Below are positions 12,001 to 18,000 of a DNA stretch of 64,000 nucleotides, piece after piece. The DNA is taken from assembly GCA_964220215.1 (NCBI GenBank), contig CAXPTH010000021.1:31826-95825 (forward strand), written 5' to 3'. Source of the DNA: Alteromonas sp. (GTDB lineage: Bacteria; Margulisbacteria; Marinamargulisbacteria; UBA6595). The position numbers were made by a program. Each line of letters starts with the position of its first letter. The first letter of the stretch is position 1.

Positions 12001-15000
12001 TTGCCTTGATTTTAGGGTCTCTGGCGAGTGCCACGGCTCCCGGTGGAACGACGACGGTGATTCAGGAATACCGGGCCCGGGGGCGACTCACGTCAACTTT
12101 ATTTGGGGTCGTGGGCATGGACGATGCCTTTGCCATTATTTTGTATGCCTTTTCCTTTAACCTAGCCAAATCCATGTTAATTCCAAATGCTGTATTTAGC
12201 TGGTCCTCGATTATTCATGCGGGGATTCATGAAATTGGGGGAGCGTTGCTATTGGGTAGTGTCATGGCCAGCATTATTTTACTTACTATTCGTTTATTTA
12301 AGAATGATGATGCTAAAAACGTATTGTTGCTCAGCGGCTTATTTTTATGTGTGGGCATTGGCACCCATTATCAGTGTTCGATTATTTTAACGACCATGTG
12401 CATGGGCATTATTATTGCCAATCGAAAACCCAACCAATCTCGGCATTATTTTACGTTATTGAGTCAATTCACCCCGCCCATTTATATTCTATTTTTTATT
12501 CTAGTCGGTGCTCGGCTGCAAGCCAATATTCTGATCACCATGGGCAGTGTGGGCGTGGCGTATGTTGTGTTTCGAACTTTGGGCAAATTGGTGGGTAGCT
12601 GGCTGGGTGCTGTGTTGGCCAAAGCGCCGGCTAAGGTATCCAAAAATTTGGGGCTGTGTTTGCTCAGCCAAGCGGGGGTGGCCTTGGGGTTGGCCATTTC
12701 AACGTATCACGAACTGTCCACACTATCACCATTGGCGAATACAACCGGTTTGTATATACTAAATATCATCACCGGTAGTACGCTGTTGTTTCAAATTGTT
12801 GGCCCAATATTAACCAAATTAGCCTTACAGCGGGCGGGTGAAATTCAAGGAGATGCATAAATGCTAGATAAATATTTTGGATTTATTAACCTAAGTTTGG
12901 ATACCGAAGAGGCGGTAGTTGAGGCGTTCATTGAGCATACGGCTCTGGACAAAACGGAGCATCAGCACTTGGTGGCGATGTTGCGCGGGTTGTACCAAAA
13001 TTCGGGGGATCTGGTGGAGGTGGAATACGGTAAAATTCGGACCATTACGTTGGAATCCTCAGCGGAGTTTGAGCAGATGGCTGAGCAAATTATTACCAGT
13101 GACTTTTCAGCCAACAAACAAGCACGTTTGTTGACCATTTATACCCGAATTTGCAATATATCCACAGCGATTATTGCATGTGCAAAACGGATGTTGATTT
13201 TGAAACGCATTGGGGGCACCATCCCGGAGTCTTTGCATCCTGAATTGCTCGCAATGATGGATAGTCTTGAAACGATTAATGATCGGTTTAAAGATACGTT
13301 GTCGGCATTATTGGGAAACCGAAAAACCATTGCGACGGCGATCCATGCCGTGAAAGAAATTGAGCAAACGGTGGATCACCAACGTGGGGAATGCTTGACG
13401 CATTTGTATCAGCTAGCCAATACAACGGACATCCCAGCGGGGACGTTTCGTTGTATTGAAAATATTATTGAACATATTGAAACAATTGCCGATACCGTCG
13501 AATCAGCGACGATTTCTATCGAATGGCTGCTACTGGCAGAGTAGTCCCCCGCCAGCAATGGCTAACTTATCCCGAATAGCGACTGGATACAAACGCCCAG
13601 TTTACATGATTCCAAAATGCAGCCACATAATCTGGACGGCGATTCTGGTAATGCAAATAATACGCATGCTCCCACACATCCAAGCCCAACAACGGCTGAT
13701 GCCCATCCATCAGCGGATTGTCTTGATTGGGGGTTGAGCTAACAACCAATTGCCCATTATTCACCGACAACCACGCCCAGCCACTCCCAAACCGTGTTTT
13801 GGCCGCTGTTTCAAACGCCGTTTTAAATTCTTCAAAACTACCAAACTGCTGCGCAATCGCATCCGCCAAGGCTCCCGATGGCGCCTGACCCGATTCCGGT
13901 GATAAACATTGCCAAAATAACGCATGATTGTAATGACCACCCCCGTTGTTGCGGACGGCTGTTCGCTTCGCTTCCGGCACCTCATGCAACCGCCCCATCA
14001 AATCCTCAACCGATACACTGGCCAAGGCCGTACCCGCCAAGGCATCATTCACGTTGGTCACATACGCTTGATGATGCTTCCCATGGTGAATTTGCATGGT
14101 GTTCGCATCAATAAATCCAGCCAACGCATCGGGTGCATAGGGCAATTCTGGCAATGTATACATACCGTTTATCTCCTTCCTTTAATTTGATTACTACGTC
14201 TTCAAATTTTAGTGTACCGTAAAACCGATTGGCTTGCAAAATATTGTGTAAAATATTGACAAAAACCCCCAATTATTGCTATTTTTTAGTCAGTAATCCA
14301 CCCCATAATGATGACACAATGACCCTATCACTTTCTGATCCAGACGGCTACCACCACAGTGCCCTAGACGTCTTTTATGAAACCATTCGGGAAACCCCCT
14401 ATGCCCATGAATTGGATCGTGTTTTGCGTGTCATTGAGGCCCCTTCCCCAGCGGAGCGCCACACAATTCTCATGGGCATTCCGGCCAATGAATTTGATGC
14501 CTTTATTCATGTGTTTCACATTACCATGTTTGTGCATCACAGCCTTGAAAACCCCACCCCAGCCACGGATCCAACGCCCGTAACCCATGCCCTTCAAACA
14601 CTATTAAACACCGTGCCCTTGGAAGATGCCTTGGCCCTACTTCCCGGGGCAATTACCGACGTGCTCACCACCCACCCCGTGGACATGGACCGCGGATTGG
14701 TGGTCTCACACAAGCAAGATTTTGAGCAATTGTGCCAAACCTGGGAACACACCAAGCGCACCTACGCGCATGTGACAGACACCCACGATACACTCCTCAT
14801 TCGCGCCACATTAAATAATACCTACCAGCAATTAAAGCACGTCATTTTATTGCTCATCTATACCCCGAATTATCGGCAAAATCGTATTCACGCAGAATCC
14901 GAGCAACGGCATTTGTCTCGGGCCATCAAAGACCATGAAATGGCGATTTTAACCCATTGGCGAAAACTCATTACCGTCGTACAAGTCTTGTGCCTTCAGC

Positions 15001-18000
15001 ACGTATTACGCACACTGGATGACCCAGCCTATGCCCAATACACCCAACTGCCGCCCATCCAAGCCAGCTATGTCACATTGGCCGCACTGCCTGTACTGAA
15101 TCGCCATGCCTTATTCCCAACCATTGCCAATTTATCCCATACCCTGTATTACCATTTAGAAACATGGCGGGGCGACATGGACGGAAACCCGTATGTCAAC
15201 GCCAACACCGTGGCTCTGAGCCTTGCCTATGGCCGAAAACGCTGTTTTGAGCGACTCTCCGCCGATGATGCCGTAATTCGGTATCGGTACAACACGCCGG
15301 CATTTTTGCGCATTGAAGCGGAGCTGTCGGATCGCTTATCTACTTTAGAAACAACTGGAGACCCAGCCTGGGTAGCCTATATTCAGGACCGACACGCCGC
15401 CGGTTGGCCCCCCGTACAAATCTACAGTGGACTGGCCTATTACCGCATGGTTGAAATGACCGAAGCGGCGGAGTTGTTTTCACGCACCCCAGACACCCCA
15501 GCAATGCTGCATACTGGCTATGCAACCGATGCGGATTTTTTAGCCGTCACAGAGCCTTTGGAAGCCTTAGAGGCCAGCTTGGGCTTCACCCATGGGTTTT
15601 GGCACACGCAACGCCAATTGATTCAACTGCGTGGATTATCTCTGGGGCATCCCCACATTCGGCACAGCGAACACGCCAATCACACACTGGCTTTAGAACT
15701 CATGGGCATGACCCCAACCGCATGGGCGGCGTTATCCGAACCCGAGCAATGTGCCCAATTGCTCCATTGGCTAGACACGGCTACCCCGATTACCCAGATC
15801 CCCGATGCATTATCCCCGGCCAGCCATGCCTTGTTGAATAATTATTTGGGCATGATGGCCGTGGCACCCACGAGCCGACTCATTCAAAGTGATTCCATGG
15901 AATATTTGCCATCACTGAGGGCCAGTTTGACCCTACTGCGGTTGGTGAGTGTGTGGATTGGGCATACTGGAACTTGGGTAATTTTGTGTGAAAACGAAGC
16001 CAGCATGGCCACCAGCATTGCCGCTATGAACGACCCCACCCAACGCGCCTTATTTCACAATGTAATTATGATGTGTGCCGGTTCTGATAATCAAAAAAAA
16101 CTAGGGCCCTTTTATTCAGCCTATCTGAATACCACGTTTCTGAAAACCGCCCAAGCCAATGGTATTGACAGCTTTTTTGGCGTTGGCGACTCGCCCTTGC
16201 GATCGGCCTTGCACACGCCATTTTGTACGTTTAAAACCCTGCAGCCGGGCAGTCGAAAGCATCATTTTTTTGCACAGCGCATTCAGCAATATGTGTCGCA
16301 TCGCTTAGCCACGCATATCCAAAATTGTACCCACTATTGGGTATCTCAGCATAGGCCGTCCCCCATGTCCGATTCTATTTTTCAGCTATTGGGCGCATCG
16401 ATGTACCCCCCCTACAAAGCCGCTGTGCAACACAATACAGCGCTTCATGCGGCCATCCAATCCATTGCAAGCATTGCCACCACCTATTTTTCACGCCCCG
16501 CCACAAAACCGGCCTCAAACGATTCGGTGTTAACCCAAATTCGTGCGATTGATAGCGGACGCGCGCAGTTAATTTTGAATACCTGCGACCCCCAATTGGC
16601 GGGCTTATCGGTTGGCATTGCGGACTTTTTGGATGCGTTAGCCACGGCTAACATTGAAACCGATGCTTGCTATGACTTTTTTAATCACACCCCAACTGGC
16701 CAGGCACTATTAAATACTTTGGCCTATTTTCATACGATTTTAGATGATCGCCTGGACACCCCGGCAGCGATTCGAACGGTCACACAAGCCGATGTTCAAG
16801 CCGCTTATGCAGCACTGAGTGGCCAAACGCTACTGGGTCAATCGGACCCCACATTGGCCATTGTCCGGTGCATCTGGCAGTGCGTCACCAACCGAACGGA
16901 TTTGCACGAACACAAGGCCAACACCCTCTTGCTCTTTGGCGCCAATTGGATGGTTTAATGCGTCATCCAAACGGACGCTTTGCCCAAAATTGCCTGAAGA
17001 ACCGGCACGCATTCCGCTGAAACCCCGTACTGCATGCCCGCTAAAATCACGGTATCCTGGGCGTGTATCAACACCCGGCAGTCCCCCGGATGCATTTTAA
17101 TCATGCTATGCACTTGATGCACCATCGCAGGGGAATACAAAACGGCATTCACATCCACATGCATCGCCTGCTTGGATGCATGGGCCTGCATGGGAGTAAT
17201 GGCTCGGGCCGTTAGGGTACGTTCATCATCGGATTTGGTTCGAATCGTCCCCATAATTGTCACCACAGCGTCATCGTGAAACGATTCAAAAATTGCCGGG
17301 GAATCGGCTTGCTCAAACACCAAAACATCCAGGCTATGCGTTTGATCCGACACGATCCCGACACCCATTTTCTTGCCCGATTTGCTTTGCACCACCCGGC
17401 ACCCCGTTAATACCCCAACCACCTGAACCGAGGCATTGCCGGATGCCGATTGCAACACCGTTTCTAACCGATGCTCCGGTTGAATAACCACCGAATCCAA
17501 CGGATGCCCAGACAAATACACCCCCAGCATTTCTTTTTCAAACCCCAACAATTGTTCCGGTGGTATCGCCGGCACGCGCACATCGACGCTCGCATCGGGC
17601 TGGGTCTCCGTCCAACTAAACAAACTTTGTTGGCCATTTTTTTGAGCCTTAACCTGGCGCTGGGCCCACTCCAAATCCGCCGCATACCGATGCAATAAAA
17701 CATCCCGGGTGTCCCAGTCTAAAAAACACCCGCTCTTAATTAAACTTTCCACCACCCGTTTGTTGACCTGCCGCAAATCCACCCGCATCAAAAAATCCCG
17801 CAAATCGGTATACGGTCCCAATGCCCGTTCAGCTAAAATCGACTCAATGGCTTGCTCCCCCACGTTGCGAATCCCCCCGAGTCCAAATTGTATGGCAGCC
17901 TGCGACCTTTGGGCAACCGTTGCGCCCAACTGCGAGGTGTTAATATTGGGCAAGTGTATGGCGATGCCCAAACGCCGAGCCTCATGGACATACAAGGCCG

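What a model noticed while it worked through the whole genome (the two positions that open the first line are those of the whole stretch)
14319..16958. A far-diverged, full-length member of the phosphoenolpyruvate carboxylase fold (12-15% identity to known PEPCs), confine [...]
g00814 (879 aa), unnamed by Pfam (gathering cut), NCBIfam and Swiss-Prot, is predicted to adopt the whole fold of bacterial/plant-type PEP carboxylase. Family-invariant residues reproduce three PEPC signatures: the catalytic-histidine loop (His119, 114-126), the Arg/Asp/Gly/Asn-Pro motif (283-291) and the Ser-Asp...Lys motif (584-598); the Gly/Arg-rich loop of known PEPCs is replaced by another invariant stretch (619-629) and the C-terminal end differs (873-878). 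It is the only PEPC-like gene here (no pyruvate carboxylase or PPDK; PEPCK-ATP and malic enzyme present): either a third lineage of PEPC beside the bacterial/plant and archaeal types, or a PEPC-derived enzyme with a changed reaction [...]
Evidence so far: No row in the three tables; relaxed Pfam: PEPcase E 4.7e-6, residues 278-506. phmmer against PDB: nothing at E<=0.01. 18 homologues at E<=1e-10 (585-909 aa, 40-99% identity), the only named one from Ca. Marinamargulisbacteria, all 'hypothetical'. Alignment A1 of 16 sequences with its invariant columns. Profile of A1 against PDB: the only enzyme hits are PEPCs (E 0.28-0.5, not significant), aligned at the histidine loop and the Ser-Asp...Lys motif. 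AlphaFold2: pLDDT 84.5, pTM 0.81. Foldseek/PDB: listed hits are all plant PEPC chains, E 5e-18 to 2e-15, TM 0.60-0.67 over 940-1040 columns. No other C3-carboxylase in pfam.tsv. A paper search gave nothing of the kind (listing, call 152).
(Added by a program. Inside this text positions count along the whole contig: contig position 31,826 is position 1 of the stretch shown here. "Call 12" and the like, gene names such as g00115 and contig names such as C1 are that model's own, and its searches are not shown. The text may have been shortened before it was handed on; [...] marks where a part breaks off. The agent that wrote the report below was given it as the finding of a first reader that could run no searches.)

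Follow-up and report, generated by a model that had tools for sequence, protein, structure and literature searches.

The report
Diverged PEP carboxylase shared with ciliates
This marine-bacterium gene encodes a barely recognisable but probably working version of the carbon-fixing enzyme PEP carboxylase, and the same small family also occurs in secretion-equipped bacteria and in eukaryotic (probably ciliate) nuclear DNA with what look like mitochondrial address tags, which points to an undescribed enzyme lineage exchanged between protists and bacteria.

Summary
The 879-aa ORF is real and under purifying selection. It is a full-length PEP carboxylase (PEPC) homologue: the model superposes on E. 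coli PEPC (1JQN) over 758 residues at 3.7 A. Twelve E. coli active-site positions, among them H138, R396, E506, D543, R587, R699 and R713, are invariant in 27 of 27 full-length members; K546 in 26. The Gly/Arg loop is not replaced: it aligns without gaps, keeps R587 and follows the archaeal-type pattern of 3ODM. Best reading: an active PEPC with a bacterial-type body and an archaeal-like loop, cytoplasmic in this organism (0.6). The family is also in three small Burkholderiaceae-labelled genomes, two with a cut-off-passing SctV, and on intron-bearing eukaryotic contigs plus a Platyophrya ciliate transcriptome; those copies have presequence-like N-terminal extensions. Against novelty: Pfam already tags 14 of 18 close relatives, NCBI named one PEPC, and it is one of several diverged PEPC-like lineages, not 'the third'. 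The scan noted four other such lineages earlier but none similar in sequence. Activity and targeting are untested.

The parts
14319..16958 (+). Gene for the 879-aa PEP carboxylase homologue (P0001)
   Evidence: model pLDDT 91.0, pTM 0.88; Z 22.9, 3.7 A, 758 residues against 1JQN
14256..14285 (+). Sigma-70-like promoter match upstream of the ATG, divergent from the upstream gene; weak
   Evidence: 10 of 12 matches; 1 found, 1.2 expected in shuffles
14658..14696 (+). Barrel strand 1 and catalytic-His loop, residues 114-126; H119 = E. coli H138
   Evidence: H in 27 of 27 full-length members
15165..15191 (+). Residues 283-291; W283, D286, D288 = E. coli W248, D252, D254 (bacterial/plant-type motif)
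   Evidence: each 27 of 27
15648..15668 (+). Barrel strand 3; R448 = E. coli R396
   Evidence: 27 of 27; aligned by HMMER to 1FIY
15984..15992 (+). L556 and metal ligand E558 = E. coli L504 and E506
   Evidence: 27 of 27 each
16068..16112 (+). Residues 584-598; M585, metal ligand D590, K593 = E. coli M538, D543, K546
   Evidence: M 24, D 27, K 26 of 27
16173..16205 (+). Gly loop, residues 619-629: R628 = E. coli R587 kept, H579 to F, R581 to V; Pro two residues before the Arg as in archaeal-type PEPC
16236..16250 (+). Barrel strand 8 motif T-x-Q-P-G (640-644); only 12 residues after R628, against 22-24 in both known types
16491..16550 (+). Mobile loop II region; R726, K730, R742 = E. coli R699, R703, R713; the K702 position is T729 here
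   Evidence: R, K, R 27 of 27; K702 column K 19, T 4, S 4
16935..16955 (+). C-terminal tail ending in Val rather than Gly; its last residue superposes on the PEPC C-terminus
   Evidence: V 17, I 10 of 27; model 879 aligned to chain 881 of 1JQN and 970 of 1JQO
13567..14163 (-). Divergent upstream neighbour, Fe/Mn superoxide-dismutase-like by eye; not part of the system
   Evidence: conserved beside the gene only in the close relative L004; name recalled, not scanned
16955..20275 (-). Convergent downstream neighbour, DNA polymerase III alpha-like by eye, 4-nt overlap of stop codons; not part of the system
   Evidence: neighbourhood differs in L003, L005, L006, L055, L056; name recalled, not scanned

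Best explanation
The window protein is an active PEP carboxylase of a separate, undescribed lineage. It works in the bacterium's cytoplasm to refill the TCA cycle and probably lacks the usual aspartate/malate feedback. Inferred mechanism, transferred from known PEPCs: Mg/Mn on E558 and D590 binds PEP, held by R448, R726, R742 and the W283/L556/M585 pocket. Bicarbonate, positioned by K593 and the K730 loop, takes the phosphate to give carboxyphosphate and enolate. H119 and R628 swing in, with the C-terminal carboxylate (Val in place of Gly) as anchor. CO2 is released and added to the enolate, giving oxaloacetate and phosphate. Shown: fold, residue identities and invariance, purifying selection, genome inventory. 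Inferred: catalysis, location, loss of regulation. Relatives with a 63-95-residue N-terminal extension are read as the same enzyme addressed to mitochondria: fairly likely for the eukaryotic copies, speculative for the bacterial ones.
For: Whole-length superposition on E. coli, maize and Arabidopsis PEPCs (Z 21.5-25.1) and on archaeal-type 3ODM (Z 22.4-22.6), with the next unrelated fold at Z 12.0. Eight barrel strands in the model. Twelve E. coli positions (H138, W248, D252, D254, R396, L504, E506, D543, G582, R587, R699, R713) are invariant in 27 of 27 members that go down to 22% identity. The two lost loop residues are also lost in 3ODM and in archaeal-type L036. dN/dS is 0.09-0.21. The genome has PDH, citrate synthase, 2-oxoglutarate dehydrogenase, succinyl-CoA synthetase, MDH and pyruvate kinase hits, and no hit for the glyoxylate shunt, pyruvate carboxylase or another PEPC. 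Only 7 residues precede the conserved core, and confidence is 93 from residue 11, so there is little room for an export signal. The three Burkholderiaceae-labelled carriers have no PF00311 match, whereas 49 of their 58 sampled relatives do; that is one lineage, so one event.
Against: No activity data. H579, reported as important for E. coli catalysis (passage in PMC11832675), is F or L in all 27. The C-terminal Gly is V or I. The segment after R628 is 10-12 residues shorter than in either known type. The NCBIfam PEPC score is 31.4 against a cut-off of 815. The enzyme is not needed to fill a gap everywhere: carrier G012 also has pyruvate carboxylase and PEPCK-ATP, and every carrier tested has a PEPCK. 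In another diverged lineage a PEPC-like gene coexists with a canonical ppc (G015), which suggests a separate role there. The first 25 residues of the window clade are mildly S/T/P-rich (mostly above the 70th percentile of this genome), and the genome has a flagellin-less export apparatus. The genome is 82% complete, so absences are soft. I could not read model coordinates, so active-site geometry was not measured.
Confidence: 0.6

Rival explanations
1. A PEP-binding metalloenzyme with a changed second half-reaction. It still transfers PEP's phosphate to bicarbonate, but the remodelled loop, shortened post-loop segment and altered C-terminus no longer trap CO2, so it acts as a bicarbonate-dependent PEP phosphatase (pyruvate + Pi) or adds the enolate to another electrophile.
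For: All substitutions cluster in lid elements: H579, R581, variable K702, the C-terminal Gly and a 10-12-residue deletion. PEP- and metal-binding residues are invariant, as either reaction would need. Carriers already have PEPCK and sometimes pyruvate carboxylase. That PEPC mutants hydrolyse PEP is recalled, not read here.
Against: H138 and R587, the residues tied to the carboxylation step (passages), are invariant, and K546 is kept in 26 of 27. 3ODM carries the same loop pattern. Wasting PEP makes little sense for a cytoplasmic enzyme in a genome that has pyruvate kinase.
Confidence: 0.2
2. The window protein itself is an exported host-manipulating enzyme. It is sent through the flagellum-derived apparatus into a protist host, where an unregulated PEPC drains host PEP into C4 dicarboxylates or aspartate, which the bacterium imports.
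For: FHIPEP export gate in 49 of 55 genomes of the class (18 of 18 near-complete), flagellin in 1 of 55 (0 of 18). Rod, ring and export genes are present in this genome. Dicarboxylate/amino-acid symporter family genes in 5 of 5 carriers tested (also common in controls, 8 of 14). One class member is a described intracellular symbiont (passage, PMC6784892). Patchy distribution, 6 of 55, and unconserved neighbours. Bacterial relatives with extensions sit in genomes with SctV over the TIGR01399 cut-off (2 of 2 scanned).
Against: The window clade has only 5-21 residues before the conserved core, and the N-terminus is modelled as packed. 1 of 15 unextended members passes the crude targeting-peptide filter. 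Strong purifying selection, not effector-like turnover. A missing flagellin may reflect divergence beyond the Pfam model. No host is known for this organism.
Confidence: 0.13
3. A catalytically dead PEPC-fold scaffold or metabolite sensor that binds PEP and metal without turnover.
For: About 15% identity to E. coli PEPC, and far below the NCBIfam cut-off.
Against: Pseudo-enzymes usually lose catalytic residues first. Here these are the most conserved columns across bacteria and eukaryotes.
Confidence: 0.05

Closest known systems
Bacterial/plant-type PEP carboxylase (EC 4.1.1.31; Pfam PF00311; NCBIfam NF000584; E. coli Ppc 1FIY/1JQN; maize 1JQO)
   Same: Size, N-terminal helical domain, whole fold (758 residues, 3.7 A); the H138, W248/D252/D254, R396, L504/E506, D543/K546, R587, R699/R703/R713 positions; C-terminus ends at the same place.
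   Different: About 15% identity; loop is G-x-G-(D/C)-S-P-(L/F)-R rather than GRGGxxGRGG, so H579 and R581 are lost; T-x-Q-P-G instead of TEQG; 12 rather than 24 residues from the Arg to strand 8; ends in V/I, not Gly; aspartate-site K773/R832 not alignable; 31 bits against an 815 cut-off.
Archaeal-type PEP carboxylase (PepcA; Pfam PF14010; TIGR02751; PDB 3ODM)
   Same: Barrel core (Z 22.4, 3.4 A, 419 residues); loop of the same length with a hydrophobic residue at H579, a non-Arg at R581, Pro two before the conserved Arg, and T-F-Q at strand 8.
   Different: 879 aa against about 500-540; keeps the bacterial-type N-terminal domain, the D-x-D-G motif and K546 (Met in archaeal type); no PF14010 or TIGR02751 match; profile match only 19.7% probability over 82 columns. 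Shared ancestry or convergence of the loop is unresolved.
Other far-diverged PEPC-like proteins of the same class (L037, L039, L026, L027/L029, permuted L091) and four earlier scan notes
   Same: Keep the His, metal ligands and R587 equivalent; lose R581; most share T-x-Q-P-G.
   Different: Not hit by this family's profile, and no family row among their listed BLAST hits; K546 is often R or L; they did not group with the family in the quick tree (long branches).

Membership tests
Bacterial/plant-type PEPC | Pfam PF00311 gathering score | tested here: met
   25.3 bits against 22.4 for the whole protein; marginal, best stretch 18.5
Bacterial/plant-type PEPC | NCBIfam equivalog NF000584 cut-off | tested here: not met
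   31.4 against 815 bits
Bacterial/plant-type PEPC | 90-110 kDa subunit with the full barrel-plus-helical fold | tested here: met
   879 aa; Z 22.9, 3.7 A, 758 residues against 1JQN; size range from PMC8100219 passage
Bacterial/plant-type PEPC | Catalytic His, metal Glu/Asp, W/L/M pocket, R396/R587/R699/R713, K546 | tested here: met
   27 of 27 except M538 (24) and K546 (26); roles of His, Glu/Asp, pocket and R587 from passages; roles of R396/R699/R713/K546 recalled
Bacterial/plant-type PEPC | Loop I GRGGxxGRGG with H579 and R581 | tested here: not met
   H579 column F 23, L 4; R581 column V 13, Q 6, A 4, K 3, R 1; G580, G582, R587 kept
Bacterial/plant-type PEPC | C-terminal peptide ending in Gly | tested here: not met
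   ends V (17) or I (10) of 27, at the structurally equivalent place
Bacterial/plant-type PEPC | Aspartate/malate allosteric site (K773, R832, N881) | tested here: inconclusive
   gap columns in the alignment, but the C-terminal third aligns poorly and residue-level structural pairs were not available
PEPC (either type) | PEP + bicarbonate to oxaloacetate activity; tetramer | not testable with these tools
   no assay; two copies exceed the complex-prediction size limit
Archaeal-type PEPC | 55-60 kDa subunit; PF14010/TIGR02751 match | tested here: not met
   879 aa; no match; control L036 scores 608 bits
Archaeal-type PEPC | G-x-G-x-x-P-(F/L)-R loop and T-x-Q strand 8 | tested here: met
Type III secreted effector (window protein) | Disordered N-terminal export segment of about 20 or more residues | tested here: not met
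   7 residues before the conserved Pro; block pLDDT 71 then 93; the length criterion is recalled
Type III secreted effector (window protein) | Secretion machine in the genome | tested here: inconclusive
   FlhA-like gate below both FlhA and SctV cut-offs; basal body present, flagellin not found
Mitochondrial matrix protein (extended relatives) | Cleavable basic, acid-free, S/T-rich presequence | tested here: inconclusive
   home-made filter set after seeing the sequences: 8 of 8 extended members pass, against 1 of 15 unextended, 13 of 214, 28 of 879 and 1 of 97 background ORFs; residues 13-77 low confidence in the L060 model; no trained predictor, and the filter cannot separate presequences from type III signals

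The most novel reading that the evidence does not exclude
This is a distinct PEPC class, with a bacterial-type scaffold and an archaeal-type catalytic loop, that circulates between protists and their bacterial symbionts. Type III-equipped bacteria fit it with a mitochondrial presequence and inject it to rewire host mitochondrial carbon flux, and colpodean ciliates keep it as their own nuclear-encoded mitochondrial PEPC. It would be a core carbon-fixing enzyme used as an organelle-targeted effector, with gene exchange between symbiont and host nucleus.
Probability: 0.3. Interest if true: 0.9.

Novelty: new variant of a known kind. Interest (0 to 1): 0.72.

Why it matters
Reviews recognise bacterial/plant-type and archaeal-type PEPCs (PMC8100219, passages). 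An active member of this family would define the minimal catalytic set shared by all types. It would show that the 'signature' Gly/Arg loop and C-terminal Gly are dispensable on the large scaffold, and it might supply a feedback-insensitive carboxylase of use in metabolic engineering. It would change metabolic reconstructions of Marinamargulisbacteria, where such genes are mostly listed as hypothetical. The eukaryotic copies add an unreported inter-domain transfer of a central-metabolism enzyme with an apparent mitochondrial tag. The tagged bacterial copies give a direct, testable candidate for an enzyme effector aimed at protist mitochondria.

Tried and rejected
Longer TTG start at 14229 (909 aa): rejected; the frame is closed upstream in the 76% relative. 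Conserved operon or pathway partner: none; neighbours differ in L003, L005, L006, L008-L010, L055-L057. Mutual exclusion with canonical ppc in the class: 0 of 6 carriers have one, but with about 6 canonical or mid-type holders among 55 genomes less than one overlap is expected, so this is uninformative. Expression: seawater and salt-marsh RNA-library contigs cover parts of the gene and equally its neighbours, and contigs cannot show transcription; not used as evidence. Placement against the archaeal type: the quick tree joined L036 to the family, but on an 8.0-long branch flagged as unsafe; not used. Direct descent of the eukaryotic copies from the Burkholderiaceae clade: not supported (AU p = 0.04, LG+G4, long branches), so donor and direction stay open. 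The 'Rickettsiales' title of L006 was not relied on; its protein falls inside the window clade. ESM Atlas gave only PEPC clusters, 0.89-0.91, no structure search. Profile A1 against PDB was not significant (E 0.1); the wider A2 was. Rows left out: 6 of 44 from the first tree (two fragments, four near-duplicates); 20 of 44 used in the second; 27 full-length rows counted (fragments P0035, L057, L062 and partial P0019, P0021 not counted). Literature: ten searches of the open-access library listed no description of this family or of a colpodean PEPC; subscription papers, including the primary structure papers, are not in the library, and no supplements were opened. The Ciliophrys preprint had no bearing. 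Complex prediction was not run, since two copies exceed the size limit.

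
Full report
OBSERVATION. The ORF at 14319-16958 (+) is open for 879 codons. It lies between a divergent superoxide-dismutase-like gene and a convergent polymerase-alpha-like gene (both named by eye). The upstream TTG extension is not conserved, and dN/dS against relatives at 76, 99 and 94% identity is 0.09, 0.16 and 0.21. Members of its 90% cluster are labelled Ca. Marinamargulisbacteria. Pfam gives PF00311 at 25.3 bits, just over the 22.4 whole-protein cut-off. 14 of 18 close homologues already carry PF00311, and one is named PEP carboxylase at NCBI. NCBIfam scores it 31.4 against 815. 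So it is at the edge of automatic recognition rather than wholly unseen.

HOMOLOGY AND FOLD. A 22-sequence profile (A2) hits E. coli PEPC 1FIY at E 3.7e-7 and canonical PEPCs in the 5.8-billion set at 9e-6 to 7e-4. Profile-profile comparison with eight canonical-type sequences gives 99.5% and 662 columns. The AlphaFold2 model has pLDDT 91.0 and pTM 0.88, with eight barrel strands. VIA-align superposes residues 13-879 on 1JQN 13-881 (Z 22.9, 3.7 A, 758 residues) and 110-879 on archaeal-type 3ODM (Z 22.4, 3.4 A, 419 residues); the best non-PEPC fold scores 12.0.

ACTIVE SITE. In a 44-row alignment with E. coli Ppc taken from the genome record, 27 full-length family rows were counted. H138, W248, D252, D254, R396, L504, E506, D543, G580, G582, R587, R699 and R713 are invariant; R703 is always K; K546 is K in 26 and M538 is M in 24. 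The solved archaeal-type enzyme 3ODM has Leu and Cys at the H579 and R581 places, Pro two before the conserved Arg, Met at K546 and T-F-Q at strand 8, and a profile comparison aligns this family's loop to that of an archaeal-type protein from the same phylum (probability only 19.7%). The family thus joins a bacterial-type body to an archaeal-like loop. Its own peculiarity is a 12-residue link from that Arg to strand 8, against 22-24 in both known types. Residue roles: His138, His579 and R587 from passages of PMC11832675; loops I and II and the Arg/C-terminal Gly contact from passages of PMC3894211; metal, pocket and aspartate-site residues from passages and the Fig. 1 legend of PMC7569800; the three-step mechanism and type definitions from passages of PMC8100219. 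The roles of R396, R699, R713 and K546 are recalled. That 3ODM is active rests on a reference title seen, not on reading the paper.

GENOME CONTEXT. tblastn with E. coli proteins finds PDH, citrate synthase, SucA, SucC, Mdh, Pck (58%), PykF and a malic-enzyme domain, and nothing for PpsA, PtsI, AceA, AceB, Can or Ppc. No pyruvate carboxylase or archaeal-type PEPC was found. The genome is 82% complete. An anaplerotic role fits, but carrier G012 also has pyruvate carboxylase, and all carriers tested have a PEPCK. Passages of PMC6349859 describe the group as aerobic heterotrophs with a full TCA cycle; the word 'carboxylase' does not occur in its main text.

DISTRIBUTION. The profile matches 6 of 146 genomes of the phylum, all in the window's class of 55. 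It also finds three 1.7-2.2 Mb genomes titled Oxalobacteraceae/Burkholderiaceae, the only carriers among 61 relatives searched. They have no PF00311 match, while 49 of the other 58 do. Two full-length export-gate proteins from them pass the SctV cut-off (the third genome's is partial). Their 984-985-aa proteins start with 94-95 extra residues.

EUKARYOTIC MEMBERS. P0029 comes from the EukProt transcriptome of Platyophrya macrostoma, a colpodean ciliate. Two distinct compost-metagenome sequences, each on two contigs of 26-54 kb, are 68 and 78% identical to it. Their neighbours include a kinase/EF-hand gene, an Iml2/TTC39 gene shared by both, and a ribosomal L1 gene. The kinase frame is interrupted by five short GT-AG stretches read by eye as introns. 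These are nuclear eukaryotic loci, and the family gene itself is uninterrupted. A fourth sequence, P0051, is 57% identical. That the compost organisms are colpodeans is inferred only from likeness to P0029. The L060 model is PEPC-like from residue 84 (Z 24.0, 4.2 A, 769 residues against 3ZGE) with residues 13-77 unstructured. A home-made filter (first 40 residues: at least 4 K/R, at most 1 D/E, at least 5 S/T, no long hydrophobic run), set after seeing the sequences, passes 8 of 8 extended members, 1 of 15 unextended, and 13 of 214, 28 of 879 and 1 of 97 background ORFs. It suggests targeting peptides but cannot tell mitochondrial from type III signals.

TREE. With four canonical-type outgroup rows the family is one side of a 100/100 branch, and the three eukaryotic rows form a 100/100 group, sister to the bacterial rows at 93/89. 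A eukaryote-plus-Burkholderiaceae clade is weakly rejected (p-AU 0.04) (LG+G4, long-branch warnings). The direction of transfer is not resolved. The narrow eukaryotic range favours bacteria to ciliate, but a host-to-symbiont route for the tagged copies is not excluded. The origins of P0024 and P0028 are unknown.

NOT THE ONLY ODD LINEAGE. Searches with PF00311 and PF14010 across the phylum exposed other far-diverged PEPC-like ORFs (L037, L039, L026, L027/L029), a moderately diverged group that also lost R581 (L022-L024), canonical copies (L020, L021) and one archaeal-type copy (L036). G015 holds both a canonical ppc and a circularly permuted PEPC-like protein with an S-rich N-terminus. Earlier scan notes describe four further diverged lineages on other DNA (unchecked), none similar by sequence. 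The class has the FHIPEP export gate in 49 of 55 genomes and flagellin in 1 of 55, which keeps an effector reading alive for some of these proteins. The window protein has only 7 residues before its core, which argues against it.

VERDICT. Real and more than chance. It works like a PEP carboxylase (0.6 as a cytoplasmic anaplerotic enzyme; about 0.73 for PEPC chemistry in any location). It is not a member of either curated type: it fails the bacterial-type loop, C-terminus and equivalog tests and the archaeal-type size and HMM tests. Novelty: new variant of a known kind. Ten searches of the open-access library listed no description of it; subscription literature and supplements were not seen. 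Interest 0.72, carried by the hybrid active site and by the spread to eukaryotic nuclei and secretion-equipped bacteria with apparent targeting peptides.

Noticed in passing
L091:3365-5986 (+) (G015:C11): 873-aa circularly permuted PEPC-like protein: S-rich N-terminus, then the R699/R713-type motifs, then the His loop through to T-x-Q-P-G near the C-terminus. No Pfam hit; the genome also has a canonical ppc.
   Followed up: partly
Window's class, 55 genomes; G000:C8 and C12 (L092, L093): FlhA-like gate in 49 of 55 genomes (18 of 18 near-complete) with rod, ring, FliF, FliK and FliP/R/FlhB genes in G000, but flagellin in only 1 of 55: possibly a class-wide filament-less, flagellum-derived secretion machine.
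   Followed up: partly
L037, L039, L026, L027, L029: At least four further mutually dissimilar far-diverged PEPC-like lineages (840-1113 aa open frames) in the same class, most with T-x-Q-P-G and no R581.
   Followed up: partly
L022-L024: Moderately diverged PEPCs (about 26% to E. coli) that keep TEQG and a C-terminal Gly but have E at H579 and V/I at R581: an independent loss of the same loop residues.
   Followed up: partly
L008:11475-12689; L009:5498-6904; L010:11511-12917: Orphan ORFs two genes downstream of the family gene in the Burkholderiaceae-labelled genomes, also with presequence-like N-termini; the two scanned have no Pfam or NCBIfam match.
   Followed up: partly
L036 (G001): A true archaeal-type PEPC (TIGR02751, 608 bits) in a genome of the same phylum.
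   Followed up: yes
L057:1641-7976: A family member lies shortly downstream of FliH, FliI/SctN-like ATPase and FliJ genes; probably coincidental.
   Followed up: no
window 21111-21596 (-): 161-aa orphan with a basic, S/P-rich N-terminus and a short SEVQ-type repeat; no Pfam hit.
   Followed up: no
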